Shown: positions 14,133-61,189 of the stretch, one piece after another | How the letters are laid out: each line of letters opens with the position of its first letter | Position numbering within the stretch: the stretch's first letter is position 1 | Source: an uncultured virus (IMG/VR IMGVR_UViG_3300020045_011964) | Taxonomy: Duplodnaviria; Heunggongvirae; Uroviricota; Caudoviricetes | Length of the DNA stretch: 64,000 nucleotides | Reading direction: 5' to 3' (one strand) | IMG/VR virus record: IMGVR_UViG_3300020045_011964 | Notes under the pieces: generated by a model | The model's input: the letters and a program-made list of their open reading frames with translations, nothing else | The model's database searches: none | Told to the model about the DNA's origin: nothing | Made by a program: the position numbers and the translations under genes

Positions 14133-14148
14133 CAATTTTCAAAAACTC

Positions 14149-24322: not shown

Positions 24323-25431
24323 TTCGGTTTTACCTCAATATTGTGCCGTGTCGGGTCGGTATTAATCCACATCGTTATCCACATTGTTATTTGCTTCCAG
24401 AGTTTTTTAAGCATCATTCCGACAATGATTAAACCAATTAAAAGCAATAAATAACCTAGATTGTCCTTTACCAACCCAAAAATAAATGTGCCGATTTCCG
24501 CCGCCGAAATAAAACCCTGACTGATAGCGTCCGTTATCGCTTTAATAACAACTGCCATAAACGTCGGAACAGTTATGCCGTAAAGAGTCATTTTAACGCT
24601 GTCGGATGTTGAGTTTTCTTTGGGTGGTGCATCCTGGATTTTATCTTCGGGAACAAATACGGGTGCCGGAGTTTCGCCGGTTGAAACATTTGTGATATTT
24701 TCGGCAATCTGTGTTGGTTGGTCAGTTGTTGGCGGAGTCTGCGGCGAGTTAGTTTGCACCGTGTTGCCCGTTGTAATAGTTTGAACGGGTGCGAGTCCGC
24801 CGATGGTTTGTGAATCTATGACGGCTGAAACGTTTTCGGGTGTGGTTTCAAACTGATTGCAATCAATATTTTCAAATTTGAATTTATCAAAAGCATTTTT
24901 CATTTTCACGTCATAATTATTGATTTTGTAATTCTTGCCGTTGTAGCCTCGTGCAAATCCCGCCCAATCGCCGCGCCGTAACTCGTCGTCAAGATTGTTA
25001 TGTTCGACAAATCCGCAAAAGGCTTCTAGTTGTTCGCCCTCACTGATTTTCATAGCATCAACAAAATCATTGATTGACCAAAATCCGCAAATAGCATAAT
25101 TGAAACCCATTATTTGAAATTTGCCCCAACTGCAAGAAAGCATTGCCGCTTTTGCGTTTAGTGAAAATGCTTCATTAAATCGGTGATATTCGTTTTCGTT
25201 GCCGAAATATCCGCCGGGATTTTTATTGGAAATTTGCGGGTGTGAGTTGTCATAAATGCCGTTTGTGAATCGGCGGAAATGGTGACGTTCAAATAGTATG
25301 ACAACTCTACCGTCTGAAAGAAAACCTGAGCCTCTGCTTTCCACTTGGGCGACGGCACGAATTTTTGCGACTTCACAATTAAGTCTTTTGGATGCACTAC
25401 ACCAATCAGCCAAAGTCAGTTTTTTGCTCAC
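24319..25431 (-). CDS. Endolysin: N-acetylmuramidase (DUF3380-type) with Pro/Thr linker and C-terminal membrane segments
   Basis: AV..VES.G.GF..GR..ILFERH.F, SCSWG.FQIMGFNY, W..FAR.YNG..Y..N.YD; GTG start with GGAGG RBS. Confidence 0.9.
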   Translation of the reverse strand: MSKKLTLADWCSASKRLNCEVAKIRAVAQVESRGSGFLSDGRVVILFERHHFRRFTNGIYDNSHPQISNKNPGGYFGNENEYHRFNEAFSLNAKAAMLSCSWGKFQIMGFNYAICGFWSINDFVDAMKISEGEQLEAFCGFVEHNNLDDELRRGDWAGFARGYNGKNYKINNYDVKMKNAFDKFKFENIDCNQFETTPENVSAVIDSQTIGGLAPVQTITTGNTVQTNSPQTPPTTDQPTQIAENITNVSTGETPAPVFVPEDKIQDAPPKENSTSDSVKMTLYGITVPTFMAVVIKAITDAISQGFISAAEIGTFIFGLVKDNLGYLLLLIGLIIVGMMLKKLWKQITMWITMWINTDPTRHNIEVKPK

Positions 25432-25469
25432 GCGAACACCTCCGATACATAGGGTTTATTTGGTAATTG

Positions 25470-25556
25470 TGTTAAAATAGAAAATGGCTCACAAGAAAGA
25501 TTGCAACTTTCAGGTAAGCCTAACCACAAACTTTTTATATTAGAGATAAAAAATCT
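25470..25556 (+). promoter_or_regulatory. HNH cassette promoter/leader (copy 1)
   Basis: TGtTAAAAT extended -10, then AAAATGGCT-hairpin-AGCCTAACCA. Confidence 0.6.
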
Positions 25557-26093
25557 ATGGCTATTCTTAATCGTATTCTTCCCCCAATCACGGAGCAACA
25601 AATCAAACGATTTTGGCAAAAAGTTGATATTGGTTTTTCTGACCAATGTTGGGAATGGCAAGGCAGTTTCTTCCATTCTTCGGGCTATGGGCAGTTTGCC
25701 TACCAAAATAATAAAGTTAAACGAAACGCTTTGGCTCACAGAATTGCTTATTTTATTCACTACAAAACCGACCCTGACCAACTCCTTGTTTGTCACACTT
25801 GCGATATTCGAAAATGCATAAACCCAAATCATTTGTTTTTGGGAACCCATTTGGACAATAATCGTGACCGCGATGAAAAAGGTCATACCTACAAAGGCAA
25901 AAACCACCATCTCGCCTTGTTTATCAATCAAGGCGAGAAAAACGGCAGAGCAAAGTTGACCAAAGAAGATGTTATTGAACTGCGACGACTCAGAGAAAAC
26001 GGCGAAAAATGGTTGAGACTTGCAAAAAGATTCAACATCAACCGAAGAACGGTAAAAAATATTGTCAAGCGCGTTCTTTGGAAACATATTTAG
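25557..26093 (+). CDS. HNH homing endonuclease (antisense to operon)
   Basis: RFW.KV...CWEWQG...GYG...AHRIAY...VCH.CD...C.NP.HL.LGT..DN; C-terminal HTH. Confidence 0.92.
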   Translation: MAILNRILPPITEQQIKRFWQKVDIGFSDQCWEWQGSFFHSSGYGQFAYQNNKVKRNALAHRIAYFIHYKTDPDQLLVCHTCDIRKCINPNHLFLGTHLDNNRDRDEKGHTYKGKNHHLALFINQGEKNGRAKLTKEDVIELRRLRENGEKWLRLAKRFNINRRTVKNIVKRVLWKHI

Positions 26094-26216
26094 ACCGCTC
26101 GGCAAAAACCCGCTGCCTGCCGATTCTACAAGCGCAACTGCTTTGATATTTGCCACGCCGCAATTCAACCTGCGAGCGGTTTTGCAGTAGTCCTCATTTG
26201 AAAGTATTTTTCCCAT
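26094..26216 (-). pseudogene. Stub of the original endolysin N-terminus (41 codons)
   Basis: MGKILSNEDYCKTARRLNCGVANIKAVALVESAGSGFLPSG aligns to MSKKLTLADWCSASKRLNCEVAKIRAVAQVESRGSGFLSDG; similarity ends exactly at the HNH stop. Confidence 0.85.
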
Positions 26217-26226
26217 AAATTTTATA

Positions 26227-26623
26227 TTGAACTGCCCCGCCCTATACATCGAGACTCGCAAACTAAACTTCACCAAAGCAGAGCAGTTCAAACTAAATTG
26301 GCGGCTGAAACTGAAAATTAGTTGAAAGTGATTCTGGCAGGAGAAAACTAGAACCTTAATTTATCAAAGGTTTTTCCAATCGCGTCGAGCCGCCAAACTG
26401 TTTATTGCAGTCTGCCCGATCCGCACCTTTAGGCTGATAGCTAACCAGGTCTTTGTCTATCATTTAACGGATTCAGGTGTGAGAACTCTCCAACCTACGG
26501 CTATGTTCTACATTTCAACCCGAACGACTGCAAATTGATTTTCAAAATATCTTGGATGCTTTTCTCAAGGTGCACACAATTAAGAGTGGTCTTCTCTCTT
26601 ACTTTCACTTGAACTCAGCACCC
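26227..26623 (-). ncRNA. Third array of stem-closed RNA units (26227-26291, 26298-26396, 26405-26533, 26554-26623)
   Basis: Closing stems of 7-17 bp, several with minus-strand G-U pairs; boxA-like GATATTTTGAAAATCAA at 26535-26551. Confidence 0.6.
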
Positions 26624-26664
26624 GTTTCCTATTATTTTCCAAAAACTCTTTTTTGGCAAGAGTT

Positions 26665-29600
26665 TTATCGCTCACTTCGTTGCCTTGTTTGCCGTCGTCT
26701 GCCCGTTCCCGGACTTATGTTAGTCCCCGGCGGCAGAATTTTTTGTAGAATTTCTCTCGCATTTGCTTTTGAAAACTCATCCGAAGTCTTACTTTTCAAA
26801 ACATTTTCAAGTTTTGTTTTATACATTGGCAGTAGTTCTTCTTTTTCTTTTTCGGTTGCCTGCCGCCAAACCTGCTCGGCAGATGACACAGGTTGTTTAA
26901 TTTCTACTTGTGCAGACAACGGTTTGAAGTTTTCCTGCAAATCTGTTGTGGACATTGCTTTGATTCCGTAATCCTCCTGCCCTTTGGTGATCACGCCTTC
27001 CTGAACAAAGGTATTGAATTTCTTCTCTAAGGCTTTCAGACCTTCTTTATCGCCTAATTCACGCAAACGATCGCTTTCTTTTTCAAAGTCGCGTTTGACT
27101 GCCGCTTTCATTTTTTCATCAGCTAATTCAGGACGGCGATACCCGCTTTTGAAAGCAAGTTTGCGGGCGGTAATCTCTGCCGCCGAAGGTTCTTTGGTTA
27201 AGAAATTTCCGTCCGTCACATTAAATCCGAAAATCTTTAAGATCGGAACTTTATTACGAATTGTCGGTGCTTCGGTTGCGTAATTTTTACGCGCCTTGAC
27301 CTTATCCTTAAAGACAGCCTCTAAAATTCGTCTTGATTCAGGCAATCTTTTATCAATCCCTTCCAAAAACGGTCTGTCATCGAGATTCAAAGGTGTTTGT
27401 TCGTAAGTATCAAACTGAGCAAACAAATCCTTAATGGTTTTAGCCTGAATAAAGTTTGTATTTGTGCCTAAAACATTGCCCATCCACCTATTAATGGCCT
27501 GAACGAATCTTTCATCTTCTCTGTCATAATTATTACCCCGTGACCACGCCCATTTACCTCCGTAGGTCAATGCTTTCAATAAATCACCTTCAAACGCGGC
27601 ACGATATGAAAATCCGGTAAAGGCTTCAAGTAATTCTGCCGCTTGTTCGTCATAATCCTTGTCAGTAAATAAATCCTTGCCGTTCCGCAGACGATTGATC
27701 TTATTGGCGATAAAGACGAACGGAGCCAACATCGGTTGTGTGCGGACATCGAAATAATAACTGCCGGTCGGATTGTTCGGAGTTTTTTCTGCCATCCCTT
27801 CCGTCATCGGAATTCTTAAATAGTTCCAATCATCTCTGTCGCCTAAAGACGCAACCATTCCGACCGCCAATGCCAGGACACCCCATCCCCAAATCTGGTT
27901 AGCAATTTGTCTGGATGTCCAATTTTCTTTGATGGCTTGTTTAATGAAATGATCTTCACCCGCTAATTTTAAGGCTTTAGCTCTTGCGCCTGTTTTGATC
28001 AGTAATCTCGCTTGCGCAATTACCGGAATCTTGGTCTTGGTCTTGTTAATGGTGTTATACATAAACCCGACAAACGGTGCCAGTTCCGATGCGGCTAAAT
28101 CAATTGCCCCGCTTCGATGGATAGTTTCTAAAACAGTTGCAAAAACGTAATCGTTGTATGATCCGCTTCTCTTATCAGGACGAAGCGCATAGGTCAGTTC
28201 CAGCACACGCTTGAGAACAAACTCCACATCTTCCTGCGTAAATTGTGAGAAATCCACTCCCTCAGTAATGTCTATCCCTTTTTGACGGGCAATATGAGCA
28301 AGTGCATTGACACCTTCAATGTCACGCATCAAAAATTCCTGCCAGCGCATTGCCTTCATACCCGGAGTGACATCGAGCCATTTAATAACTCCCGGCGAAA
28401 AATCCGATGAAAACCGTCCGTAAAAAGATTGAAAGTATTCGGGATGCTCGTCAATCAGGCGCAGCATTACTTCGTGTTTCGGCATCCCTTTGCTTACTTC
28501 ATTACCGAATTCATCAATTGTGGTTTCCGTAAATGTCGGAGTTTTCCAGACATCTTTAATAGATGCGTCACGGTTTAATCCTTCATCCTGCAAACCCTTG
28601 AATACTCTTTGCAAGGTCAAATCCATAGTGTCAATAACCTTGTTCATTCCGTAATTTTCTAATGTAGTTGAACCTAAATTGGTAAAAACGGTTTGAAACA
28701 GCGAGGTCATTCCCATCCGGCGAACCTGTGCAATGATATGAAGCAGAGAAGGCTTTCTTTCCAGAGTTGCGGCGGTTTGCTGCAACTTATCCATTGCTTT
28801 TGCCCGTGCGCGTTTTACTACTGCTAATTCCTTTTCCATTTCAAGGGTAATACCCCTCCGACGTTTTGCTTCAACTCTCAGGTTTGCAGCTACGAGTTTA
28901 TTGAGCTTGGCTGCTTTTGCCGTTACTTTCTGTAAATCTTCGACTTTTGCGTGTTGTTGATCACGGGTATCGGTTGATTTAATACCGAACCTTTCAGGAA
29001 ATAAATCTTTGATGGTTTTGCCGAGAGTGGTTGCAGTTGCGTTATTGGTTGCTAAAGCCAATGCACCGATAACCACTTCATCTTCGGAATTCGGCACAGT
29101 TTCTTCGGCAACTTCGATATACTTAGCTACAAAAGCGTTTTTAGCATTGGCAAGTTTATCCGAGACATCGGCTGTTTGTTCGGTTTCGGGTAAGGCTTGT
29201 TGGTTTGGATTGGGAACAATCGCAAACAAATCAGGTTTTCGTTCCTTATTCTTAAAGAAAAGATTCTTGAGTTCCTTGAGATTGTTGATTATTTTCTGTC
29301 CGGTTGAAACATCTTTAGCATTTTCATCGGCAAGTTTTTGTTTAACCTCTGCCATTTTTTTAGAGGTTTCCGCTACTTCTTTTGCCTGTGCTTTGATTTC
29401 GGCAATTTCTTCAAGTGTTAATGGCGTTCCGATTCCGTTCTGTGAGCGTTTCTTTTCAATGTATTCCACAGCAGTAGCGGGATCGAATAAACCCCATTCG
29501 GCAAGCTGACGAATAAATTGTCCGGCATCCGTTCCCTGTTCGGAAATGGCTTCAATAACCTGTTTTTTCCGTTTGTTGTAAATTTCGGCAAGTGCTTTGT

Positions 29601-32600
29601 CACCGCTTGCAAGCGCATCTTCCGCTTTGAGGGCTAAGAGTTGGGCAACTTCCATCTGGAAAGTTCCGTGTTTGCGTAGAGAGACGGGATCATTTACTCC
29701 TATCGGCACAATTGCCTGATTGATTGCGTCCGTCAGTCCTAGTTGGTCAATCCTATCCTGTGCTTCACGCTTGTTGCCTTCAACGGATTTGACTTCGTAG
29801 TAACCTTTTGCACCGAGTTCTTCTTCCTCAATCAATCCTCGCTGTTCAACGGTTTGGACGGTTTTTCGCTTTTTGATGATTGGCTCATCTCCGCTTTTTG
29901 TTTGTCGAGATACTCCATCATCTTTGCCATCTGTTCCGCCCTCGACCCCTGTAATATCTCCGGCATCTGTTTGGCTGCTTTCGCTAGTGCTTGCCGGCGG
30001 TTTCGTAAAGATTGTCTCGATTGCTTGCTTTGCATAGTCTATTTCTCCAAATCGGTTAAACGCTTCCTGACGGGCAGTATTAGCCTCAGTCGGCGATTTC
30101 CTTAATTTTATATTATCATCATAAACTTTTTGTCCGAAACTTGTAAAAAAGTTAATTAAATACTCGGCTGCCTGTTCTTGAGTTAAGCCCAATTTTGCCC
30201 AATCGCCGGCGGCGGAATAAGCGGCAATTTCTTCCCTGATAACCGCAGCTCTCGCTTGTTCGGGATTTTTGATTTTTTTGGCTTTGAAAGATTCCAGAGA
30301 GTATTCGGGTTGTTTGTCAAAGAAAGTGTTGACCGCTTTCGTGTAGATTGGACTATTATCCAATTTAGTTTTGCCTGCCTCAGTATGGCGGTCATCCAAA
30401 TCTTTTCCAAACTGCGACAACATTGATTGCTGGTGTAAGATTTCGTGTGGTAACTGTTCATCTAAAACATAGAAGATAACCGAACCGCGTTCACCTTTTT
30501 TGATACCTTCTTTAATAGTATCGGCAAACGCCTGAATCTGTTTGGCAAGTTCGGGATTGGCAGTTTCAGCCCGGCGCGCAAGAGATTCTAACACCCGAAC
30601 ACCTTCCGGCACTTTTTGTAAATCCGTTGGAGTCAGTCCCGTAAACGCCGGATAGGGCTGTTTTTCTCTTAATTTACCCAACCCTCTTTGAATGTCCACT
30701 TGCTCAAGAGCGCGTCTGACCAATTCCATTCCGGCAAGATTTAATTGCAGCCTGTCACCGACTCTGATGATTTGGGCTTTTTCAATTACCTGCGGCAAAG
30801 GAACGGTCTGAATTTGCCTGAACTGCTTCATCCTCTGCTTTTCCGCATCAGGCGATTCTTCGGATGCCATTTCATTTCTGACAGTTTTTTTAGCGATAAC
30901 GATGTCGCCTTTAACGGTTACTTCGTCACCGAAAACTAAAGCGACTTCGGACATATAATCTTTCGCTAATCTGTTTTCCTGCCAACCCTTACTGGTTTGT
31001 TTGGGTTGATTGTCCCGCGCACCCTCATAAATCTTGAAATATGCCGTCCCACCTTCTTTTAAGGCGTTATGCGCTTGCATTATAACGAGTCGGCGGTTTC
31101 CTGGTTCCTGAATAACATTTAGAACATTATTGACGGTTGCCGTGTCGGATTGTCCGCCACGGATTTGTTCGACCGCTTTTTCGTTATGTTCTTTACTGCG
31201 GTTGAACGGGTCAAAAACAACATTGGTGACACCTTGTTTCCCTAAAAACTCGGTGGCGTTATCGAACCGACCGCCGCCGATGTCGGCATTTTTCGTACCT
31301 GATTGCCAATCGACAAAATTAAAAGTGGTCGGTAATTTACTGCTGTTGATGGACGTATCTGCCGAAGTGAATTCCTGTTCAGGGATTTCCCACAAACTGT
31401 CCGACGACCGCGTTTCATTCCGCGCCATCGCCAACAGTTCGCCTTCGGTAATAACTATCTGCCTTGCTCTCGGAGTATCTTCCGTGGCTGAAAAAGGATA
31501 CTGCTCTCTTTCTTCGTCAGAGAGTTCCCTACGAAATTCGACGTTCCGCGCTTCCGCTTCACCGGCAATTCGTTGATATTTTTCAAACGCCTCTTTAAAT
31601 TCCGGCGAGGACATATCGAAAGATTCCGCTTTTCCTTTGTCGAGAAAAAGATTGGCGCTTCCGCCGACCGGAAAACCTTCCGCAAATTGGATGATATGCT
31701 GAACTTCGTGGAGGATGACCGAAAGTTTGGATGAAGGCGACAACGATGATCTGACCTTTATCTGAATTGGTGTTCCGCCCATCGTCACACCTTTTTGCTG
31801 TAAAGTCGGCGATAATGTCACCGCAACTTTTTTAAGTTCAGGATAGGCCTTAAAAAGTTCGGGAAACTCAAGCATTTCGTCCAATGTTCCGGCAGTTTCA
31901 TAAACCGACATTTTTTTAGCTAAAGGTGTCAGTTCTGCTTTGGAATCATTGAGTTCGGTTTGCCAATCACCTTTAACATTCTTTTCCCAACCCGTTGCGA
32001 GAAATATTCTACTGTCTGAAATCCCTGCTTCATCCATCGCTTTCGCAACGGCTAAGTTTTTCAGACGTTTTTGAGAATCGGTTAAATTCTGGACACCCTG
32101 CTCACCGATGATGGCGAACATTTCCTGAATATCTGTGCCGGAATCTTTCGTTAATCCGCTTTCGGGTTCTGTATCTTCGGCGGATTCGGTTTCTTGACGG
32201 TCTGCGGTTTTAGCTTGCGCTTCATCATCCAATCCTTCCTCAGTTTCACCAAGTCTCTCCCCATCCTCATCAACGCTTTTCTCAAATTTGAATTCTTCAT
32301 CGTATCTCGGAGCCTCCACATACTTAACTTTAAATACTTTTTCTATTGCTTCGCTTTTATCCAACGGCATCTGCGCCTCTGCAAAAAGCGTTGCTTCTGT
32401 GCCTTTTATTGCTTCAGCGTAATCCTTAAACAATTGTCTGATTTCTTTTTGTGTTTCCGCTTCGGCAAACTTTTGAGCAAAAAAGAGTTCTACCGGAGTA
32501 TAAATATCTGCCGGAGCCTGTCCGGTAAAAATATCCGCCTGCGTTGCCCACAACTGAAAAGGAATTTCTTTTTCCTCACTGATTTCCAGATAGGAATTTG

Positions 32601-35600: not shown

Positions 35601-37701
35601 CCATAACTTGTCCAATGGCTTTCGGTGCGATATTTGTCAAAATATAATCTGATTTAGTGAATTGTAAATCTTTATTTTGCGCTTTTTCTAACCGCTTACT
35701 GATAATGTCGCCAAACTGATACAAACCGCCGTCTTTTGCTTCAAATTGCTTGCCATTAACAATAACACTGTAAATGTTCTGTAAAGATAACGGCATAGTT
35801 TCGCCGACTATATCAATTGTTTTAGCAACGGACGCAAAAGCATCAGGAATGGTTGACGCAAGACTTTTAACAAATTCTGCCGGTTTAGCCATCGGACGAG
35901 TAGAATCAAAAACCGTTCCGTATTCTTTCTCAATCCGTTGCTGTTCCTGATAATACTTATCAAACGATTTATATTTAGCCAGAATCTTTTCTTTCTGTGC
36001 TTCAATGTCCGCTAAATTTGCTTGTTTTGCTTCTTCGGGAGAAACATAACCCTGCGACAAAATAAACCGGTTATACGCTTCCTCGTCTGAAATCTTATTT
36101 TCATCCTCAAATCGTTTGGCTGCGGCAAGTTCTCTTTCTTCTGCTTCTTTACGTCTGCTTTGCCGGGCTTGATATTCTTCTGCCGAAATAATGCCTTCAT
36201 TCAAAAGAGCATCATCCTGACTTTCACCGTTTTTTATTCTTGCTTCAACCGCTTCGCGTTTGGTTTTTATTTTTTCAGCGTCCGCAAAGATTTTAGCCGG
36301 AATACGGTGTGTAACCGTTCCCCCGCCTTTCGACAGTTCAATTAAATCCGTATCAGTAATACGTCCGCCTTCTTCAAAGTTAATCGGATTGTTAGCCAGA
36401 ACAATTTCAATATCCTGCGGACTGACGCCACTTTCCCGTAAGGCTTGAGCAGTTGTTTCATTTAGTCTTTGACGGACATCTTCGCCTTGCTCGATTTGCA
36501 ATCGAATCGTTTTATCTTTATATGAAGCAATTCTTTGTGCTTCTTTAACTGCGGCTTCTTCTCTGATTTCTCCGTTGGGCGAGACAATATAAACAATACC
36601 ATCCCGCTCACGGCGAACTTCGCCTTTATTCAAACCTTGTTGGTCTTTTGCAAAAGTATATTCGTTGCCCTTAGAGTCTTTAATAACCGGTGCGTTGGGA
36701 TCGGCGGCAACCGCAACAGTTCCGCTTTTTGGCAAAGACCTGTTATATTCTTCAACCTGTTTATTATACTGAGCGGCATTGGCGGCATTTTGACGATTTG
36801 CCTCTGCAATCGTCATTTTTTGAATATTGTTAAAATCGTCAATCAAACCTTGAGTGACCGGCGGATTACCCATCGCCGCCAAATAATCCTGAAAGTTTTT
36901 GGCAATTTCTTTTTGGTCAGCCACAGGCGGCGCAACTACCTGAGAAGTTATCGCCGGTGCGGGTTTTGGTTGGGCTTGATTCGCCATCCATTGCTGAAAT
37001 TCCTGTTGATTTTCAATTAATGGCGGCTGTTCCTGAACCGGAGATTTAATAGTCTGTGTTCCCGGGACTGTCGGCTGCGGAACTTGCGGTAAATTAAAGT
37101 CTTTCGGTAACGTGACACCCGCTTGTTTGTAATCTTCAAGTGTCGGATATTCGACCGGCACATCTCTGGTCATTACATTTGGCGATGAATATTCAGGAGT
37201 TTCATTTTGACCAACTAAATCCGGTGCGTTTTTTTGAACAATGTCATCTAAAAAACCAAAACTCTTGCCTGGTTTTCCCCGATAATATTTTTTATAACGT
37301 CCATCAAAATAAGCTCCCCAATGATTTAACGGTTCTCCGGTTTTATGTCCTTGTTTATAGACATCTAAAGCAACTTTGGCATTATACACAGGATCGGACT
37401 GCAAACGGTTGACATCATATTTTCTTTGTCTTTCGGGATGGATCATATTGATCTGCCAAATTCCGTAAGACTTCTCTTTGGTAGGTTTTCCGCCGTGACC
37501 GACACCGGGATTAAAGGCGTTGACCTTACCCGAACTTTCAGCCATCCCGATAGCCGACATCTTCGGAATTAAAGATTCATCCCACCCCGCTTTCCGCAAG
37601 GCATCTTCAAGATCATCCTGTGAAAGAGTTTGTTTTTTTGTTTTGGTTTGCCCTTTGGCAATTTTATCCAAAAATGAAAAATCTTTATCGTATCCGTCCA
37701 T
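26665..37701 (-). CDS. Giant polyvalent virion/ejection protein (3678 aa)
   Basis: N-terminal lytic transglycosylase (MAESSG...SYGIWQIN); ParB/ddrB-like domain (GAP.V...GEVIQGNNR); LPD23-type zincin (LHEVQH.IQ..EGF..GG...GEAEAR); SAM-MTase-like domain (DIGGGRFD...FDPFNR...NVLNVI); second HEILH. Confidence 0.85.
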   Translation of the reverse strand: MDGYDKDFSFLDKIAKGQTKTKKQTLSQDDLEDALRKAGWDESLIPKMSAIGMAESSGKVNAFNPGVGHGGKPTKEKSYGIWQINMIHPERQRKYDVNRLQSDPVYNAKVALDVYKQGHKTGEPLNHWGAYFDGRYKKYYRGKPGKSFGFLDDIVQKNAPDLVGQNETPEYSSPNVMTRDVPVEYPTLEDYKQAGVTLPKDFNLPQVPQPTVPGTQTIKSPVQEQPPLIENQQEFQQWMANQAQPKPAPAITSQVVAPPVADQKEIAKNFQDYLAAMGNPPVTQGLIDDFNNIQKMTIAEANRQNAANAAQYNKQVEEYNRSLPKSGTVAVAADPNAPVIKDSKGNEYTFAKDQQGLNKGEVRRERDGIVYIVSPNGEIREEAAVKEAQRIASYKDKTIRLQIEQGEDVRQRLNETTAQALRESGVSPQDIEIVLANNPINFEEGGRITDTDLIELSKGGGTVTHRIPAKIFADAEKIKTKREAVEARIKNGESQDDALLNEGIISAEEYQARQSRRKEAEERELAAAKRFEDENKISDEEAYNRFILSQGYVSPEEAKQANLADIEAQKEKILAKYKSFDKYYQEQQRIEKEYGTVFDSTRPMAKPAEFVKSLASTIPDAFASVAKTIDIVGETMPLSLQNIYSVIVNGKQFEAKDGGLYQFGDIISKRLEKAQNKDLQFTKSDYILTNIAPKAIGQVMVQIGLGALSGGMTLPVLLGSSMGAAEQYDEALKKGAQPFERKLAAIVGGVAAVSDAIPLARFLSPLSKAEKAGFFSKILGSIFAKASQEVGEKAAVEVTKGAFANLLKKGGTLATGAFLEGTQELSEKKINDFVASLTYDPSRKVFVLSEEDMMEFLGGAIGGLGGAGFQIALESQTEQDDADVEEFTNNLFGIKPEKAQTELKPLTPEEVEAKIAEVDKVLEQAKAEKQQAVPVSTKPVVGSTIQTEIKAKGGTVTKQGVVTDIKGNQLVVEFDDGTKSFVRKNKATVVDENAITEPEQELPETVQPKIEELPEETQNWLDSVATGQRQTDFDFDLPETKEPSQPKGVEVGEPIVQNTLAQAKKKDVTPKTEPVLEGKTKDIVAKEFNEANVFGNRQARNDWYEKNQDVIRFGNANATDMAMGKHGVTFDFQQMNNGSLRGIKQPDGSYAVVPQFDSAVSPRNQKEGGYQEFFDIEELSNPTEWTLTKPAKITVDKNGKITLVEKGQINDGLNNYSERKVNNIPIEQKDEAPQPESKVSKIEETAPKGLVRNYRAGTNDGTIIFASKIQRDLFDYYANEKKKMTGGGQKANQTKVKDLSDLRVSLAKQIGVSENEIFGLASQVAEDVKSQMKGVGHLEERKVLDNIIDISPITKPIEQTSESTLPKELEKPPLEKSSADERRKAGRFTKDGVEYVRQPKTTIQTKGDEGTVRFSPTHDVPFHYGLIEADSLQPADLEGNPNLHHFLPLVQPNVATDVRKKASDDIAKNPRFGDLGVNTNAFFGAPTVNSRGEVIQGNNRSEGIKKSYGLNDLYRKQLLENAEKFGFKKEQVEKLKKPVMVRVIEVTDEEAILLGNKKVTDMETGVGLRLDPRATANQIPYRDQTKILRNAFEFIKPDWTLNKAIRENEQNILNGLKNHLSEQHYNSLLNNDGQLSPRGIEDIQGLFREFLFTNGHPDLTTVFENLPFNAREALLNAIPVIYSVSQQSVLVPEIQMAMQAANSYLEISEEKEIPFQLWATQADIFTGQAPADIYTPVELFFAQKFAEAETQKEIRQLFKDYAEAIKGTEATLFAEAQMPLDKSEAIEKVFKVKYVEAPRYDEEFKFEKSVDEDGERLGETEEGLDDEAQAKTADRQETESAEDTEPESGLTKDSGTDIQEMFAIIGEQGVQNLTDSQKRLKNLAVAKAMDEAGISDSRIFLATGWEKNVKGDWQTELNDSKAELTPLAKKMSVYETAGTLDEMLEFPELFKAYPELKKVAVTLSPTLQQKGVTMGGTPIQIKVRSSLSPSSKLSVILHEVQHIIQFAEGFPVGGSANLFLDKGKAESFDMSSPEFKEAFEKYQRIAGEAEARNVEFRRELSDEEREQYPFSATEDTPRARQIVITEGELLAMARNETRSSDSLWEIPEQEFTSADTSINSSKLPTTFNFVDWQSGTKNADIGGGRFDNATEFLGKQGVTNVVFDPFNRSKEHNEKAVEQIRGGQSDTATVNNVLNVIQEPGNRRLVIMQAHNALKEGGTAYFKIYEGARDNQPKQTSKGWQENRLAKDYMSEVALVFGDEVTVKGDIVIAKKTVRNEMASEESPDAEKQRMKQFRQIQTVPLPQVIEKAQIIRVGDRLQLNLAGMELVRRALEQVDIQRGLGKLREKQPYPAFTGLTPTDLQKVPEGVRVLESLARRAETANPELAKQIQAFADTIKEGIKKGERGSVIFYVLDEQLPHEILHQQSMLSQFGKDLDDRHTEAGKTKLDNSPIYTKAVNTFFDKQPEYSLESFKAKKIKNPEQARAAVIREEIAAYSAAGDWAKLGLTQEQAAEYLINFFTSFGQKVYDDNIKLRKSPTEANTARQEAFNRFGEIDYAKQAIETIFTKPPASTSESSQTDAGDITGVEGGTDGKDDGVSRQTKSGDEPIIKKRKTVQTVEQRGLIEEEELGAKGYYEVKSVEGNKREAQDRIDQLGLTDAINQAIVPIGVNDPVSLRKHGTFQMEVAQLLALKAEDALASGDKALAEIYNKRKKQVIEAISEQGTDAGQFIRQLAEWGLFDPATAVEYIEKKRSQNGIGTPLTLEEIAEIKAQAKEVAETSKKMAEVKQKLADENAKDVSTGQKIINNLKELKNLFFKNKERKPDLFAIVPNPNQQALPETEQTADVSDKLANAKNAFVAKYIEVAEETVPNSEDEVVIGALALATNNATATTLGKTIKDLFPERFGIKSTDTRDQQHAKVEDLQKVTAKAAKLNKLVAANLRVEAKRRRGITLEMEKELAVVKRARAKAMDKLQQTAATLERKPSLLHIIAQVRRMGMTSLFQTVFTNLGSTTLENYGMNKVIDTMDLTLQRVFKGLQDEGLNRDASIKDVWKTPTFTETTIDEFGNEVSKGMPKHEVMLRLIDEHPEYFQSFYGRFSSDFSPGVIKWLDVTPGMKAMRWQEFLMRDIEGVNALAHIARQKGIDITEGVDFSQFTQEDVEFVLKRVLELTYALRPDKRSGSYNDYVFATVLETIHRSGAIDLAASELAPFVGFMYNTINKTKTKIPVIAQARLLIKTGARAKALKLAGEDHFIKQAIKENWTSRQIANQIWGWGVLALAVGMVASLGDRDDWNYLRIPMTEGMAEKTPNNPTGSYYFDVRTQPMLAPFVFIANKINRLRNGKDLFTDKDYDEQAAELLEAFTGFSYRAAFEGDLLKALTYGGKWAWSRGNNYDREDERFVQAINRWMGNVLGTNTNFIQAKTIKDLFAQFDTYEQTPLNLDDRPFLEGIDKRLPESRRILEAVFKDKVKARKNYATEAPTIRNKVPILKIFGFNVTDGNFLTKEPSAAEITARKLAFKSGYRRPELADEKMKAAVKRDFEKESDRLRELGDKEGLKALEKKFNTFVQEGVITKGQEDYGIKAMSTTDLQENFKPLSAQVEIKQPVSSAEQVWRQATEKEKEELLPMYKTKLENVLKSKTSDEFSKANAREILQKILPPGTNISPGTGRRRQTRQRSER

Positions 37702-37704
37702 ATT

Positions 37705-39540: not shown

Positions 39541-39545
39541 ATTCT

Positions 39546-40277: not shown

Positions 40278-40518
40278 ATTTTGCCAATAAAAAACCAATC
40301 GCGACTCCAAATAGAATTCCGATAAACGCAAAAACTGCCACCCAAAGGAACACTATTCTAGCCACTTCTTCTGTGATTTCCCTACCAAAACTACTCATAA
40401 TTACTCCCTTTTACCGTAACGGGTAAATACAAATTCCTCATCACCAATTTTAATTTTAACTGATTTATAGTTGTCAATATTTATAACTAAATCTTCTTTG
40501 GTTTCATTTGCCATAATT

Positions 40519-41028
40519 TTATTTAATATTACAAAGCACTAACAACTCCATCAAAAAAGCAAAACACAGAGTCATCGCTGCCCCGCTTATAACCGAACCT
40601 AGCACCGATCCCCAAAATCCGCCACCTTGTTGCGTAGTCTGATTTCCTGTGGAAGTGCTTCCCGTTTGAACAAGTTGCGGTGCTGTCATTCCCGCCGCCG
40701 CTACTTTTCTACCGAACTGCTGATTCTCCGCGTCAAAAAATCCTTCATTCATTGCCCTGCCCTTATCAGCCGCTAATTTATGTAAATTTGACCGTAAAGA
40801 CTTCTCTTTAACGTCCTGATTGGTATATGAGCCAAACGGATCGTTATAGGAATTCTTTATTTCACCCTCAAGTTGTCCATACATTCCCTGAATTGCCGGA
40901 TTGATTGACACAGGCTTATTAGCTATATCTATGACACCCTGTATCTCCGGCGTGATAGGCGATTTCTCCCATCCATAGGATGCCGTATTGGTTTGCGAAC
41001 TTTTTGTCTCTTGTTTTTTTTTCGAGAT
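40519..41028 (-). CDS. Pilot/ejection protein, apparent ATC start
   Basis: SKKKQETKSSQT N-terminus, Thr/Gln tract and GGGFWGSVLG end; AGGAGG lies 6 nt before the in-frame ATC at 41028. Confidence 0.6.
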   Translation of the reverse strand: MSKKKQETKSSQTNTASYGWEKSPITPEIQGVIDIANKPVSINPAIQGMYGQLEGEIKNSYNDPFGSYTNQDVKEKSLRSNLHKLAADKGRAMNEGFFDAENQQFGRKVAAAGMTAPQLVQTGSTSTGNQTTQQGGGFWGSVLGSVISGAAMTLCFAFLMELLVLCNIK

Positions 41029-41066
41029 AACACACCTCCTTAACCCCTTGTGCTTATGGGGGGTTG

Positions 41067-41147
41067 TGGTAAAATATAAAAACGGCTCGGACAAGTGTTA
41101 CAAGCACTCTCCAAGCCTAACCAAAATCTACTAAAGAGGAGTAAATA
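41067..41147 (+). promoter_or_regulatory. HNH cassette promoter/leader (copy 2)
   Basis: TGgTAAAAT, AAAACGGCT-hairpin-AGCCTAACCAAAATCTACTAAAGAGGAGTAAATA. Confidence 0.65.
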
Positions 41148-41771
41148 ATGGCTGAAAACTATTTTAATCGAATCCACGCTGACCGTAAATCGCTTACGCG
41201 ACTTTTCTCTAAAATCACAATCAGTTCTGAAAACTTTTTCAAAGGCGTTCCTTGTTGGGAATCCATCACATCGCTTAGCACCGCAGGATACCCCCGCATT
41301 GGATTCAAAAAACGTGTGTGGTATAAATATAAACTCGCATATGAGATATTTGTAGAAATTACACCAAAAGGTTTGGAGATTGACCATCTGTGTCGTAATC
41401 GCCTCTGCTGGAACCCTGCTCATCTTGAACCTGTTACCCACGCTGAAAATATGGCGCGAGGCGCGCACGCTTTGAAAACTCATTGCAAATACGGACACAT
41501 ATTGCGCGAAACTAATAAAACTGAAAAGTTTCAAAAGAATTACCGAAGATGCCGAGAGTGCAACAATAGACAGATCACTGAAAAATATCATAGAGAAAAT
41601 CCTAACGCCCGCAAACTCGGCAACCGTATAGCAAGAACTTGTTGTGCCAACGGACACGAATACACTCAAGAAAATACCCATATCAATAAAAAGGGGTGGC
41701 GCCAGTGTAGGCAATGCAGACAAAAATGGGCAAATAAATCTTACCGCAACAAATTGGAAAAACTTTCTTAA
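41148..41771 (+). CDS. HNH homing endonuclease with two zinc-ribbon repeats (antisense to operon)
   Basis: CWE...GY...EIDHLCRNR.C.NP.HLEPVT.AEN; KTHCKYGH...CREC and C.NGHEY...CRQC. Confidence 0.92.
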   Translation: MAENYFNRIHADRKSLTRLFSKITISSENFFKGVPCWESITSLSTAGYPRIGFKKRVWYKYKLAYEIFVEITPKGLEIDHLCRNRLCWNPAHLEPVTHAENMARGAHALKTHCKYGHILRETNKTEKFQKNYRRCRECNNRQITEKYHRENPNARKLGNRIARTCCANGHEYTQENTHINKKGWRQCRQCRQKWANKSYRNKLEKLS

Positions 41772-41773
41772 CA

Positions 41774-42286
41774 TTAATTAACTATCTCCCATTTACTGAA
41801 ACTGCCTTTAGCAATCGCCAACTGCACCCATTCAAGCATCTTGTTATGCGAGAAACCCCGATACAGTTTAAGCATTGTCGGCTTAAAACCTATCGCCGCC
41901 ATCATCTTCTTAACCGGACGGTTTTTTCTCAGAACAAACGCATAACAGATTCTCATATTTCCAAGAAACTGATAATCTCTGATCTGGGCGATGACGGGGA
42001 TAACTTCCGCTAACTGACACCCTCTTTTCAAATCACAGTGAACGTTATAAACGCCATCTGCTATGAGTTCAAAATAGGCTATCCCCGACAATTTGTCCAC
42101 CCTTTTTTCATCCCGCTCAAATATCCCGTATAAATTCGCACAGTTTTGATAGTGCTTGACAATTTCATCTTCACCTGTTGTCCAGGTAGCAGACGCATTG
42201 CGGTAAAATTTCGGCATCGCCAATTCAAACCTTGCCGCTTCTCTCAGGAGCCTTGTTTCGGTCTTTTTTAATGGTCGAAAGTGCAT
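41774..42286 (-). CDS. GNAT-fold-like protein in the internal-virion module
   Basis: Position; A.V...N.PV.KM...IGF pattern resembles the acetyltransferase C-terminal motif. Confidence 0.5.
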   Translation of the reverse strand: MHFRPLKKTETRLLREAARFELAMPKFYRNASATWTTGEDEIVKHYQNCANLYGIFERDEKRVDKLSGIAYFELIADGVYNVHCDLKRGCQLAEVIPVIAQIRDYQFLGNMRICYAFVLRKNRPVKKMMAAIGFKPTMLKLYRGFSHNKMLEWVQLAIAKGSFSKWEIVN

Positions 42287-42397
42287 CTTTCTTTTCCCTG
42301 TAAATAATTGTCTGACATCTTAAACATCTCACCAGTTTGCCGACTCTGACCGTTAAATGCGCCGTTCTCATACATTCCACTGACGGATTGATGTCGC

Positions 42398-42682
42398 TCA
42401 TAATACATCCACGTCATTAAGTAACGATTCGTCCGTTGACCTGATTGGCGAAATTGACTCAGCCGTTTCAGCCGGATTGACGATACTGCCGGATTGATAA
42501 GAGAGCATCCCCGCACTTCCCGAAGTGCTTAAACCCGCACCTGAATTTACTCCCTGTGCTTCACCGATTGACGATGTTGCCATTCCCAAACTCATTGCCC
42601 GTTGCAGGCTAAGACGTGCATTTCCGCCTTGTCGGTAACGGTTTCTGATTGCAGATGGCAATGTAAATAGCGAATCTATCAT
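42398..42682 (-). CDS. Small virion-module protein with replacement N-terminus
   Basis: GGAGG RBS; MIDSLFTLP duplicated as MQDSLLNLP at 43389. Confidence 0.65.
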   Translation of the reverse strand: MIDSLFTLPSAIRNRYRQGGNARLSLQRAMSLGMATSSIGEAQGVNSGAGLSTSGSAGMLSYQSGSIVNPAETAESISPIRSTDESLLNDVDVL

Positions 42683-42717
42683 TTGAATGTTCCTCCGATA
42701 GTGTTATAATTATCAAT

Positions 42718-43368
42718 ATGAAAAAAGCTTTTTTGATTGGACAGCGTTTTGATAGATTGTTGGTAATTCAACAACTCCCTCCAAATGTGCATAAGAAAAC
42801 TGTGTGGCTTTGTATTTGTGATTGTGGTAATAACACCAAAACTATTACTCAATCCCTCAAACGTGGAAAAACAAAATCTTGTGGTTGCTGGAAAGATGAA
42901 TGTACGGCAAAACGATTTACCAAACATAATGAATCTCGAAACAAAACTAATCATCAAAAACAATCTTCTGAATATTCTGCCTATTGTTCTGCTAAAACTC
43001 GTTGCACTAATCCAAAATCTGAACGTTATTCTAATTATGGTCAAAGAGGGATTCAATTTTGCTTTAATTCTTTTCAAGAGTTTTTGGAAGAAGTCGGACG
43101 AAAACCAACTTCTAAACATACTTTGAATCGAAAAAATAATGATGGACATTATGAAAAAGGTAATGTCGAATGGGCTGATTTGATAACTCAAATGAATAAC
43201 AAACAAAATACAATTTATGTGCTTTACAAAAATCAAAAATATAATCTTAAACAAATTTCGGAATTGACTGGTATTCGGCGCAACGTTCTTACGGCCAGAA
43301 AACGTTATGGTTGGTGCGGAACTTGTATTGTAGAATTGTCTCATAAACAATCTTGCCAACATAGGTAA
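42718..43368 (+). CDS. HNH-type homing endonuclease (antisense to operon, leaderless)
   Basis: G.RF.RL.V...WLC.CDCGN...TKSCGC...RC.NP...Y..YG.RGI...HTL.R..N.G.Y..GNV.WA; TGtTATAAT 7 nt before ATG. Confidence 0.9.
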   Translation: MKKAFLIGQRFDRLLVIQQLPPNVHKKTVWLCICDCGNNTKTITQSLKRGKTKSCGCWKDECTAKRFTKHNESRNKTNHQKQSSEYSAYCSAKTRCTNPKSERYSNYGQRGIQFCFNSFQEFLEEVGRKPTSKHTLNRKNNDGHYEKGNVEWADLITQMNNKQNTIYVLYKNQKYNLKQISELTGIRRNVLTARKRYGWCGTCIVELSHKQSCQHR

Positions 43369-43398
43369 ATTTAATAACGAATCCTGCATAATTACTCC

Positions 43399-54600: not shown

Positions 54601-54607
54601 TTGCATA

Positions 54608-61182: not shown

Positions 61183-61189
61183 AACTTAC

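What the first reader, a model, noticed from the sequence alone, without database searches (positions are those of the whole stretch)
25428..43389. Antisense HNH cassettes that keep the opposite strand fully translatable and supply a replacement start for the gene they invade
Seen: all three HNH genes antisense to the late operon (25557-26093, 41148-41771, 42718-43368) are completely spanned by a minus-strand ORF in exact codon register (26216-25428, 41774-41040, 43389-42679). Each spanning ORF starts at what appears to be the target's original start. Each ends on a stop that overlaps (GTGA at 25431, ATGA at 42682) or abuts the SD (TAA-GGAGG at 41040) of the restarted target gene. This requires 178, 207 and 216 HNH codons to contain no TTA, CTA or TCA despite AT-rich DNA, and requires the promoter/leader to be open as well. 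The two sense-oriented HNHs (15460, 53779) have no spanning antisense ORF, which serves as an internal control. Inference: an intron-less, intein-less way to invade essential genes. Ribosomes cross the insert (limiting Rho polarity) and re-initiate at a recoded, presumably cleavage-resistant, 5' allele carried by the element.
Basis: partly seen in the sequence, partly recalled or inferred. Interest (0 to 1): 0.9.

Follow-up and report, generated by a model that had tools for sequence, protein, structure and literature searches.

The report
Backward HNH cassettes with stop-free bridges
Three selfish DNA-cutting (HNH) genes sit backwards at the very start of phage genes, each gene restarts just behind the insert, and the inserts avoid every codon that would read as a stop on the other strand, most likely so that ribosomes can keep reading the phage's own message across them.

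Summary
Three real HNH genes on the + strand are each spanned, in codon register, by a minus-strand ORF. They hold 0 TTA/CTA/TCA in 601 codons. The other 42 genes use these codons at 4.24%, and none has zero (joint P about 3e-12). Other A-ending codons are used freely, so this is not general codon bias. A sense-oriented HNH of the same cassette family, with the same leader, in the same phage has 9 such codons in 244.

An HNH-less relative (L107) shows that inserts 2 and 3 lie exactly at or after the native start codons. Inserts 1 and 3 leave a diverged copy of the first 41 and 9 codons, and a full-length gene restarts behind each (GTGA, ATGA overlaps). Insert 2's restart codon is non-canonical (ATC).

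No intron or intein features were found. Bridge ORF 2 has 30 homologous called ORFs in other metagenomes, one on a contig whose length matches that of a related phage.

Translation, Rho polarity and cleavage resistance remain inferences. Antisense nucleases in inteins, gene-end replacement in fungal mitochondria and ambigrammatic RNA viruses are published. I found no paper on this phage form, but this scan has noted it before on other DNA.

The parts
25557..26093 (+). HNH1: HNH_3-type homing endonuclease gene with a C-terminal HTH, antisense to the operon. It has 0 TTA/CTA/TCA in 178 codons. Its TAG stop is the codon directly after the endolysin remnant.
25428..26216 (-). Bridge ORF 1 (the open frame extends up to TTG 26291). 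It runs from the remnant endolysin start through antisense HNH1 and the leader. Its stop TGA overlaps the endolysin GTG (GTGA).
26094..26216 (-). Remnant of the endolysin 5' end (codons 1-41). It is 24/41 aa (read by eye) and 65/123 nt identical to the start now in use. Mismatches by codon position are 15/13/30, as expected of two diverged functional alleles.
25431..25556 (.). Leader of cassette 1. On the + strand: an extended -10 (TGTTAAAAT, 25470-25478), a 5' hairpin GGCUC...AAGCC, and the motif AAGCCTAACC (25516-25525). On the minus strand: GGAGG 7 nt before the endolysin GTG.
24319..25431 (-). Target 1: full-length N-acetylmuramidase endolysin (PF11860, E 6e-60), restarting at GTG 25431.
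41148..41771 (+). HNH2: HNH_3-type endonuclease gene, antisense. It has 0 TTA/CTA/TCA in 207 codons. Its TAA stop abuts the ATG of the bridge.
41040..41774 (-). Bridge ORF 2. Its ATG overlaps the stop of the upstream 170-aa gene (TAATG), which is the native start of target 2 as seen in L107. It ends at TAA directly before GGAGG. It has 30 homologous called ORFs in other metagenomes.
41043..41147 (.). Leader of cassette 2, homologous to leader 1 and to the leader of the sense HNH at 54513. It holds an extended -10 (TGGTAAAAT, 41067-41075), a hairpin, and AAGCCTAACC (41113-41122). In the minus-strand fold the restart GGAGG pairs with the antisense of the HNH2 Shine-Dalgarno.
40519..41028 (-). 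Target 2 (unknown function). Homologues start MSKKKQ. Here the Met position is ATC (41028-41026), 6 nt after GGAGG; the alternative start is TTG 41094. An A9 run lies at 41014-41022.
42718..43368 (+). HNH3 (phrog_374, E 1e-48; no Pfam HNH hit), antisense, 33% GC. It has 0 TTA/CTA/TCA in 216 codons. Its last two codons (the final Arg and the TAA stop) lie inside the remnant of target 3.
42679..43389 (-). Bridge ORF 3. It starts at the native start of target 3 (same upstream context as L107), runs through antisense HNH3, and its TGA overlaps the new ATG (ATGA). A word-indexed search of 5.8 billion proteins found no homologue.
43363..43389 (-). Remnant of target 3 (MQDSLLNLP; the start now in use reads MIDSLFTLP; 18/27 nt identical).
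42683..42710 (+). Sigma-70-like promoter of HNH3 (TTGAAT-16-TATAAT, TG before the -10). It ends 7 nt before the ATG, so the mRNA may be leaderless. The same 35 nt carry GGAGG for the restart on the other strand.
42398..42682 (-). Target 3: 94-aa protein of unknown function, full length relative to the L107 homologue.
53779..54606 (-). Internal control: a sense-oriented HNH of the same cassette family. Its protein matches HNH1 at E 1e-21, and its leader is nearly identical to the HNH2 leader. The probable true start is ATG 54513. It has 9 TTA/CTA/TCA in 244 codons. It is in line with the operon (1 nt after the upstream stop, 8-nt overlap with the next start).
15460..16020 (-). Second sense-oriented nuclease gene (endonuclease VII / HNH PHROGs), with 11 TTA/CTA/TCA in 186 codons.

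Best explanation
Three free-standing HNH homing-endonuclease cassettes are inserted backwards at or just inside the 5' ends of three minus-strand genes of an uncultured phage: an endolysin and two small genes in the virion-gene region.

Each cassette is compact. It consists of the HNH ORF and a short leader with the cassette's own sigma-70-type promoter. On the other strand the leader carries a GGAGG, which is followed by a complete 5' end of the target gene. The old start, with 41, 9 or 0-1 codons, is left behind upstream.

The operon-strand frame that begins at the old start is kept free of stops through the whole antisense HNH gene and leader. This is done by synonymous avoidance of TTA, CTA and TCA. 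The frame ends on or next to the new start.

The most likely purpose is that ribosomes loaded at the old start, or coupled from the upstream gene, stay on the operon mRNA across 0.7-0.8 kb that would otherwise be untranslated antisense RNA. That would prevent premature termination or decay (polarity) and deliver ribosomes to the restart codon.

Shown: the anatomy, the HNH-less alleles, the frame- and orientation-specific codon avoidance, and the recurrence of bridge 2 in other metagenomes. Inferred: translation of the bridges, the anti-polarity or coupling benefit, and the origin by one-sided homologous repair of an endonuclease cut.
For: Codon evidence:
- 0 of 601 HNH codons are TTA/CTA/TCA, against 634 of 14,947 (4.24%) in 42 other genes, none of which has zero. 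Joint P = 2.7e-12 given the proteins.
- The effect is frame-specific: 0 stops in the register frame against 9-17 in the other minus frames.
- It is codon-specific. Other NNA codons make up 29.8% of HNH codons (genome 24.6%): AAA 57/63, GAA 29/35, CAA 26/30. By contrast TTA is 0/19, CTA 0/24 and TCA 0/24.
- It is orientation-specific within one cassette family in one genome. The sense copy shares the leader and has 9 such codons in 244.

Homologues:
- 4 of 4 sense-oriented HNH3 homologues in AT-rich cultured phages have 6-19 such codons.
- 13 of 13 IMG/VR homologues of HNH1 and HNH2 have 1-13, and none is spanned.

Anatomy:
- The leaders (89 codons) are open as well.
- The HNH-less relative L107 places bridge starts 2 and 3 at the native starts.
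- Stop/start overlaps are GTGA and ATGA.
- In case 2 the restart GGAGG is paired in the predicted fold and would be freed by a translating ribosome.
- From 64000 down to 26665 the minus strand has no stretch of 150 nt or more without an ORF of at least 40 aa.

Recurrence:
- Bridge ORF 2 has 30 homologues among 1.84 billion representatives.
- 27 of the 31 aligned rows (query included) have His opposite the HNH ATG, and 30 of 31 run 10 or more residues into the leader.
- The best hit, P0012, lies on a contig of 74,935 bp. That is the same length as the contig of the relative's homologues P0003 and P0011.
Against: - There are no expression data, and no sequencing run could be listed.
- Bridge 1 is preceded by 373 bases without an ORF of 40 aa or more, and by a terminator-like hairpin. 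It has no clear Shine-Dalgarno at ATG 26216. If polarity mattered there, the gap should matter too.
- The bridge RNAs are not more C-rich than the window. C/G is 0.86, 0.88 and 1.04 against 0.84, so nothing marks them as special Rho substrates.
- Restarts 1 and 3 have strong GGAGG sites and could initiate independently.
- The restart of case 2 has no canonical start codon after its GGAGG.
- T4 segD, an antisense endonuclease gene between late genes 23 and 24, has 9 such codons in 223, so backward endonuclease genes do not always need a bridge.
- The 30 homologues of bridge 2 are seen only because a gene caller called them. The number of related cassettes with closed antisense frames is unknown, and their DNA could not be fetched.
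Confidence: 0.6

Rival explanations
1. The frame is kept open by selection and is translated, but not to counter Rho polarity or to couple translation. In this reading ribosome cover keeps the late mRNA from pairing with the HNH mRNA (RNase III-type decay), shields it from endonucleases, or silences the HNH late in infection.
For: The codon evidence is the same as for the best explanation. The HNH genes have their own promoters facing the operon, so sense-antisense RNA pairs are expected. For ambigrammatic narnaviruses the favoured published reading is ribosome association rather than a protein product (PMC8155312, passages). The bridge RNAs show no Rho-substrate-like composition.
Against: Nothing in the sequence separates this reading from the polarity reading. 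The stop/start overlaps GTGA and ATGA and the masked GGAGG of case 2 point to delivery of ribosomes to the restart, which this reading does not need.
Confidence: 0.22
2. The spanning ORFs are genuine second genes (antisense overlapping genes) whose protein products matter, for instance small membrane proteins.
For: They are long (236-287 aa) and hydrophobic, with FILVMW at 39-43%. The source's gene caller called two of them. Bridge 2 has 30 homologues.
Against: - All three have 0 Pfam families, and bridge 3 has no homologue in 5.8 billion proteins.
- Their composition is what antisense translation of Lys/Glu/Asn-rich genes gives.
- The three are unrelated to one another apart from the shared leader.
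- The homologues of bridge 2 are conserved exactly where the HNH is: PFPTRNAF is the antisense of the CWEW motif region, and His lies opposite the ATG. This is explained by conservation of the HNH.
- The sense-oriented copy of the same cassette makes no such protein.
Confidence: 0.07
3. The open frames are passive 'shadow ORFs', a by-product of the codon usage or foreign origin of the HNH genes, with no selection on the other strand.
For: Frame -1 shadow ORFs opposite strongly biased genes are a known artefact (own knowledge; also noted by this scan).
Against: - The HNH genes are 33-41% GC and prefer A-ending codons everywhere except in the three critical ones.
- 17 of 17 homologues elsewhere carry such codons, and so does the same-family sense copy in this genome.
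- The non-coding leaders are open as well.
- The frames start and stop exactly on gene starts.
Confidence: 0.03
4. The inserts are inteins with the homing endonuclease on the antisense strand, ShiLan-like in-frame insertions, or group I introns with an antisense endonuclease gene. In each case the host gene would be restored by splicing or would tolerate the insert.
For: Inteins with antisense LAGLIDADG or VSR-like endonuclease ORFs are published (bioRxiv 10.1101/2025.01.02.630785, passages). So are in-frame insertions hiding an out-of-frame HNH (PMC11855218, abstract). This scan has noted antisense-HNH inteins.
Against: - Each bridge ends in a stop, and the target restarts in another frame with its own complete N-terminus.
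- No Hint or intein family matches at E<=0.1.
- The HNH fills 178, 207 and 216 codons of bridges of 262, 244 and 236 codons, which leaves no room for splicing domains.
- There is no intron family at the gathering threshold or at E<=10.
Confidence: 0.03

Closest known systems
Free-standing homing endonuclease genes of phages ('intronless homing'; T4 seg and mob genes, including antisense segD; review PMC2988022, passages read)
   Same: An HNH nuclease gene with its own promoter, no intron or intein, present or absent at the same site among related phages, sitting at gene boundaries.
   Different: These cassettes lie inside the 5' ends of genes, face backwards, leave a duplicated gene start, and keep the opposite strand stop-free. 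T4 segD does not do the last (9 of 223 codons). The review mentions antisense orientation only as a likely reason for low segD expression.
Mobile endonuclease ORFs (mORFs) that make 'gene hybrids' in fungal mitochondria (Glomus atp6, atp9, cox2 and nad3; Allomyces atp6; PMC3630166, passages read; it cites Paquin et al. 1994, not read)
   Same: The endonuclease ORF travels with a diverged copy of the end of the gene it invades. The gene stays whole through the new copy, and the native end is left behind as a remnant.
   Different: There the 3' end is replaced and the endonuclease ORF is on the same strand, sometimes in phase with the gene. Here the 5' end with Shine-Dalgarno and start is replaced, the nuclease is antisense, and a stop-free bridge is maintained.
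Inteins with an antisense homing-endonuclease ORF (bioRxiv 10.1101/2025.01.02.630785, passages; it cites Gorbalenya 1998 and Gogarten 2002, not read) and ShiLan 'hidden HNH' insertions (PMC11855218, abstract and section 4.3)
   Same: A homing nuclease is encoded in a different frame or strand from a host-gene frame that is kept free of stops across the insert.
   Different: There the open host frame is part of the host protein (spliced out or tolerated). Here it is a separate ORF that ends in a stop, and the host gene starts afresh. No splicing domains are present.
Ambigrammatic narnaviruses (PMC8155312, passages; PMC8316113, title and start of abstract in the listing)
   Same: The signature is identical: the forward gene avoids UUA, CUA and UCA, so the reverse-complement frame in codon register is open. 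The favoured reading is that ribosome association, not the peptide, is what matters.
   Different: Those are RNA viruses of eukaryotes with a whole-genome reverse ORF. Here the sequence is a DNA phage operon, the ambigram covers only a mobile insert, and it is tied at both ends to gene starts.
Genes split by endonuclease insertion. Two cases: Aeh1 nrdA split by mobE (Friedrich et al. 2007, seen only as a reference title in PMC2988022) and 'fractured genes' with split inteins (PMC2677866, start of abstract in the listing).
   Same: A homing endonuclease gene sits inside a protein-coding gene without an intron.
   Different: Those genes are left in two pieces that reassemble as proteins. Here the downstream ORF is complete and the upstream piece is a short remnant.

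Membership tests
Free-standing HNH homing endonuclease gene | Encodes an HNH / His-Me finger nuclease | tested here: met
   HNH1 and HNH2 match PF13392 at 29.8 and 36.8 bits (cut-off 24.8). All three match HNH PHROGs at 1e-25, 6e-46 and 1e-48. HNH3 has no Pfam HNH hit, and HNH1 and HNH3 (the two searched) have no PDB sequence match.
Free-standing HNH homing endonuclease gene | Present or absent at the same site in related genomes | tested here: met
   L107 (56% identity to target 2) has targets 3, U and 2 abutting, with no insert at sites 2 and 3. At site 1, 0 of 80 endolysin-homologue loci have an HNH nearby, but none of these is a close relative of the phage.
Free-standing HNH homing endonuclease gene | Cleaves the insert-less allele and is copied into it (homing) | not testable with these tools
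   Needs a cleavage assay and mixed infections.
Free-standing HNH homing endonuclease gene | Not embedded in an intron or intein | tested here: met
   No Rfam intron family at the gathering threshold or at E<=10. No Hint or intein Pfam family in the bridges.
Intein with antisense homing endonuclease | Host ORF continuous in frame through the insert, with N- and C-terminal splicing blocks | tested here: not met
   The bridges end in TGA, TAA and TGA. The targets restart in another frame with complete N-termini. No Pfam family matches the bridges.
Group I intron carrying an endonuclease gene | Ribozyme core, and exons that join to give the gene | tested here: not met
   No Intron_gpI match. Joining the 'exons' would duplicate codons 1-41 or 1-9.
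Ambigrammatic sequence | The forward ORF lacks TTA/CTA/TCA, so the register antisense frame is open beyond chance | tested here: met
   0 of 601 codons; joint P = 2.7e-12; specific to frame, codon and orientation.
Ambigrammatic sequence | The reverse frame is translated | not testable with these tools
   No RNA or ribosome data. No sequencing run could be listed.
mORF-type gene hybrid (gene-end replacement by a mobile endonuclease) | A diverged duplicate of the invaded gene's end flanks the endonuclease ORF, and one copy is in use | tested here: met
   Case 1: 41 codons, 65/123 nt identical, mismatches 15/13/30 by codon position. Case 3: 9 codons, 18/27 nt identical. Case 2: only the start codon and perhaps about 15 nt.
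mORF-type gene hybrid (gene-end replacement by a mobile endonuclease) | The copy in use is foreign and the remnant is native | tested here: inconclusive
   Remnants 2 and 3 sit in the native context. For the endolysin, both copies are equally good N-termini against 80 homologues. The new copy scores higher in 50, the remnant in 26, and the three closest homologues slightly favour the remnant.
Shadow ORF from codon bias | General codon bias (depletion of A-ending codons) explains the lack of antisense stops | tested here: not met
   Other NNA codons are 29.8% of HNH codons against 24.6% in the genome. Only TTA, CTA and TCA are absent.

The most novel reading that the evidence does not exclude
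These are members of a widespread, specialised lineage of homing-endonuclease cassettes adapted to live backwards inside phage operons. The cassette is ambigrammatic by design: the HNH gene plus a conserved promoter/hairpin leader on one strand, and a stop-free ribosome bridge ending in an outward Shine-Dalgarno and restart on the other. It moves together with a re-spelled 5' end of its target. If so, it is a third way, besides introns and inteins, for a selfish nuclease to sit inside a gene without killing it. The strength of the stop avoidance would then be a natural read-out of how much untranslated operon RNA costs in uncultured hosts.
Probability: 0.4. Interest if true: 0.8.

Novelty: new variant of a known kind. 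Interest (0 to 1): 0.65.

Why it matters
Homing endonucleases are thought to need an intron, an intein or an intergenic site to be tolerated. Here three of them sit inside gene starts with none of these. The sequence shows two compensating devices: a spare gene start, and an opposite strand kept translatable by synonymous codon choice.

The window is an unusually clean natural experiment. It holds three backward and one forward copy of related cassettes in one genome, and only the backward ones avoid the three critical codons.

This makes directly testable whether ribosome cover of operon mRNA (polarity, coupling or RNA protection) is a strong enough force to shape a mobile element's codons.

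It also has a practical side. Gene callers pick the bridge ORFs and miss the nucleases. In the source record two bridges were called and none of the three HNH genes. Such cassettes are therefore hidden in metagenome annotations.

Tried and rejected
- **Near-identical DNA in cultured phages:** none.
- **Whole genome of the window:** not held.
- **Sequencing runs:** none was listed, and no RNA holder was listed.
- **Scans for relatives.** These found nothing:
  - the 176-aa neighbour, HNH3 and alignment A1 in viral contigs;
  - A1 in metagenome contigs;
  - A3 in viral contigs and genome contigs;
  - P0016 in viral contigs.
  Only A3 in metagenome contigs gave a relative, L107.
- **Bridge alignments A5 and A6:** too diverse for the search for related loci. 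The DNA behind the 30 bridge homologues therefore stayed out of reach.
- **Leader motif scan of viral contigs:** 101 hits. None of the 101 had an HNH nearby, and only one showed a 17-nt leader match, so they are chance matches.
- **Bridge 3:** no homologue in a word-indexed search.
- **PDB sequence searches with HNH1 and HNH3:** none.
- **Rfam:** only sub-threshold hits. The best is RF00043 at 28 bits against a gathering score of 55, on both leaders. I do not file these as members.
- **Apparent 0.8-kb 'insertions' in Terricaulis endolysin loci:** these turned out to be tandem paralogues.
- **Which endolysin 5' copy is foreign:** undecided.
- **An idea dropped:** that the cassette supplies the first codons (both restarts read MSKK). 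Homologues of target 2 natively start MSKK.
- **Literature:** searches found no paper on a stop-free frame opposite a free-standing phage endonuclease gene. PMC10448857 and PMC12724721 contain no occurrence of 'antisense'. Subscription journals are not covered.

Full report
**What is there**

Nearly all genes of the window lie on the minus strand. Three + strand ORFs are real HNH endonuclease genes: 25557-26093, 41148-41771 and 42718-43368.
- HNH1 and HNH2 pass Pfam PF13392 (29.8 and 36.8 bits; cut-off 24.8).
- All three match HNH PHROGs at 1e-25, 6e-46 and 1e-48.
- 22 other + strand ORFs of 90 aa or more match no PHROG; two further ones, 14065-14478 and 61058-61576, matched none.

Each HNH gene is spanned in exact codon register by a minus-strand ORF: 25428-26291, 41040-41774 and 42679-43389. 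These have no Pfam family. The one exception is the first 40 residues of ORF 1, which match endolysin PHROGs.

**Is it more than chance?**

Yes, on several independent counts.
- Background: 42 non-HNH genes hold 634 TTA/CTA/TCA in 14,947 codons (4.24%). The lowest gene has 1.42% and none has zero.
- The three HNH genes have 0 in 178, 207 and 216 codons.
- Given their Leu and Ser content and the window's codon usage, P = 2.6e-4, 2.5e-4 and 4.2e-5; joint 2.7e-12. One search also corrects one background gene that read out of frame.
- The effect is frame-specific: 0 stops in the register frame against 9-17 in each other minus-strand frame.
- It is codon-specific. The HNH genes like A-ending codons: AAA 57/63, GAA 29/35, CAA 26/30, AGA 14/16. 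Other NNA codons are 29.8% of all codons against 24.6% in the genome. Yet TTA is 0/19, CTA 0/24 and TCA 0/24.
- The 89 leader codons outside the HNH genes are open too (P about 0.002).
- The longest run free of the three codons in any other gene is 164 codons.

**Controls**

- The sense-oriented HNH at 53779-54606 is the best control. Its protein is related to HNH1 (E 1e-21). Its leader is nearly identical to that of HNH2. From its probable start, ATG 54513, it carries 9 TTA/CTA/TCA in 244 codons.
- The other sense nuclease gene has 11 in 186.
- Four of four sense-oriented HNH3 homologues in AT-rich cultured phages have 6-19.
- Thirteen of thirteen IMG/VR homologues of HNH1 and HNH2 have 1-13, and none is spanned.
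- T4 segD is backward between late genes 23 and 24 and has 9 in 223. So the bridge is not a general property of backward endonuclease genes.

**Anatomy of the inserts**

*Case 1.* The bridge begins with MGKILSNEDYCKTARRLNCGVANIKAVALVESAGSGFLPSG. This is a second copy of the first 41 residues of the muramidase endolysin that restarts at GTG 25431.
- The two copies are 65/123 nt identical. 30 of the 58 mismatches are at third codon positions. They are therefore two diverged functional alleles, not a recent duplication.
- The HNH1 stop codon is the very next codon.
- The bridge's TGA overlaps the endolysin GTG, which has GGAGG 7 nt upstream.

*Case 3.* The bridge begins MQDSLLNLP, and the gene in use begins MIDSLFTLP.
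- The remnant start has the same upstream context (GTKK, stop, AAGGAG) as the homologous gene in L107.
- The bridge's TGA overlaps the new ATG.
- A TTGAAT-16-TATAAT promoter for HNH3 ends 7 nt before its ATG.

*Case 2.* The bridge's ATG overlaps the stop of the upstream gene (TAATG). In L107 the same TAATG is the start of the target-2 homologue, MSKKTQ. The insert therefore sits directly behind the start codon.
- Homologues of target 2 all start MSKK or MNKK.
- In the window that Met position is ATC, 6 nt after GGAGG and 12 nt after the bridge's TAA. A TTG at 41094 is the alternative start.
- In the predicted fold of the minus-strand RNA the restart GGAGG pairs with the antisense of the HNH2 Shine-Dalgarno. 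This would make the restart depend on a ribosome arriving through the bridge.

**One cassette family**

Leaders 1 and 2 and the leader of the sense copy are homologous. They share:
- an extended -10;
- a 5' hairpin whose inner stem differs with compensating changes;
- the motif AAGCCTAACC (2 exact matches in the window).

Both antisense leaders give weak full-length matches to RF00043 (28 bits; gathering score 55). I do not count these as membership.

**Recurrence elsewhere**

- The source's gene caller called bridges 2 and 3 and none of the three HNH genes.
- Bridge 2 has 30 homologues among 1.84 billion representatives.
- They cover 146-197 of the 205 antisense-HNH positions.
- Of the 31 aligned rows (the query P0004 included), 27 have His opposite the HNH start codon, 30 run 10 or more residues into the leader, and 20 keep the LGL-like antisense of the hairpin motif.
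- The best hit, P0012, lies on a contig of 74,935 bp. That is the same length as the contig carrying the relative's homologues of the neighbouring genes.
- These hits are visible only because the frames are open. Their DNA could not be fetched, so no rate can be given.
- Bridge 3 has no homologue.

**What it is not**

- Not an intron: no Rfam intron hit even at E<=10.
- Not an intein: no Hint domain, the HNH fills nearly the whole insert, and the bridge ends in a stop.
- Not a codon-bias shadow ORF.

**How it most likely works**

*Shown:*
- backward free-standing HNH cassettes at gene starts;
- a spare, re-spelled gene start behind each;
- selection keeping the operon-strand frame open.

*Inferred:*
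- Ribosomes starting at the old start, or coupled from the upstream gene, cross the insert and end on the new start. This avoids 0.7-0.8 kb of untranslated antisense RNA in an operon that otherwise has no untranslated stretch of 150 nt or more from 64000 to 26665.
- Whether the benefit is protection from Rho, translational coupling or RNA protection cannot be told from sequence.

*Weak points:*
- the 373-nt ORF-free stretch before bridge 1, and that bridge's missing Shine-Dalgarno;
- the unremarkable C/G content of the bridge RNAs;
- the strong independent ribosome sites at two restarts.

The duplicated starts are best explained by repair of an endonuclease cut. One side would be copied from a donor carrying the cassette upstream of its own allele, and the other side joined without homology. 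This is inference only.

**Comparison with what is known**

Published pieces exist for each component:
- antisense endonuclease ORFs inside inteins;
- hidden out-of-frame HNH insertions read through by a methylase;
- mORF gene hybrids that replace a gene's 3' end in fungal mitochondria;
- ambigrammatic narnaviruses with the same three-codon avoidance.

I found no paper that describes the phage form: a backward free-standing nuclease, 5' end replacement, and a stand-alone bridge ORF.

This scan's own earlier notes describe the same layout on other DNA several times. They are unchecked leads, not support.

I therefore class it as a new variant of known kinds. Its value here is the three-versus-one internal control and the HNH-less relative.

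Noticed in passing
window 26292-26664 (minus strand): This is the only stretch of 150 nt or more in the late region without a minus-strand ORF of at least 40 aa. An AT-rich hairpin with a T run lies right after the stop of the 3678-aa gene, followed by a sigma-70-like promoter (26659-26631). The 454-nt RNA folded (26217-26670, which includes this stretch) folds better than shuffles (z = -2.7). It may be a long structured leader of the lysis genes.
   Followed up: partly
window 26665-37701 (minus strand): A 3678-aa 'polyvalent' protein with SLT_3 lysozyme-like, ddrB-ParB and LPD23 domains. The phage is otherwise poorly matched by PHROGs and Pfam. It has a weak, below-cut-off match to the SU10 adaptor family (23.4 bits; cut-off 27), and its endolysin is closest to those of Pyrinomonadaceae/Acidobacteriota MAGs (58-61%).
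   Followed up: partly
window 41014-41030 and 40519-40575: Target 2 has ATC where all four full-length homologues (P0008-P0010, L107) have the start Met, followed by a run of nine A. Its ORF runs 17 residues (about 18 alignment columns) past the point where homologues stop.
   Followed up: partly
window 25485-25564 (+), 41083-41155 (+), 54513-54606 (-): A conserved 80-90 nt leader is shared by three HNH cassettes: a hairpin, then CCUAACCA, then a second hairpin, then AUGGCU. It gives weak full-length matches to the R1162 plasmid antisense RNA model RF00043 (28 bits). The antisense of its motifs recurs in 20 of the 31 aligned bridge ORFs (query included). It may be a regulatory 5' UTR element of this endonuclease family.
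   Followed up: partly
window 53779-54606 (minus strand): The long ORF of the sense HNH starts 31 codons upstream of the probable true start (ATG 54513). It reads the leader in frame from an ATG 1 nt after the upstream gene's stop, so the forward cassette is also bridged on the operon strand.
   Followed up: partly
P0004, P0005 (source record's gene calls): The public gene calls for this contig contain bridge ORFs 2 and 3 and none of the three HNH genes. Backward endonuclease cassettes of this kind are hidden in metagenome protein sets as 'hypothetical proteins'.
   Followed up: yes
P0011, P0012 (contig of 74,935 bp, not fetched): In the related phage the target-2 homologue as called lacks about 30 N-terminal residues (125 aa). 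A bridge-2 homologue is recorded on a contig of the same length. A related cassette may sit in the same gene at another position.
   Followed up: no
L184 445-2394, L188 2395-4351, L191 21-1106: Terricaulis MAG contigs carry two or three tandem paralogous muramidase genes. At first they looked like an insertion in the endolysin.
   Followed up: yes
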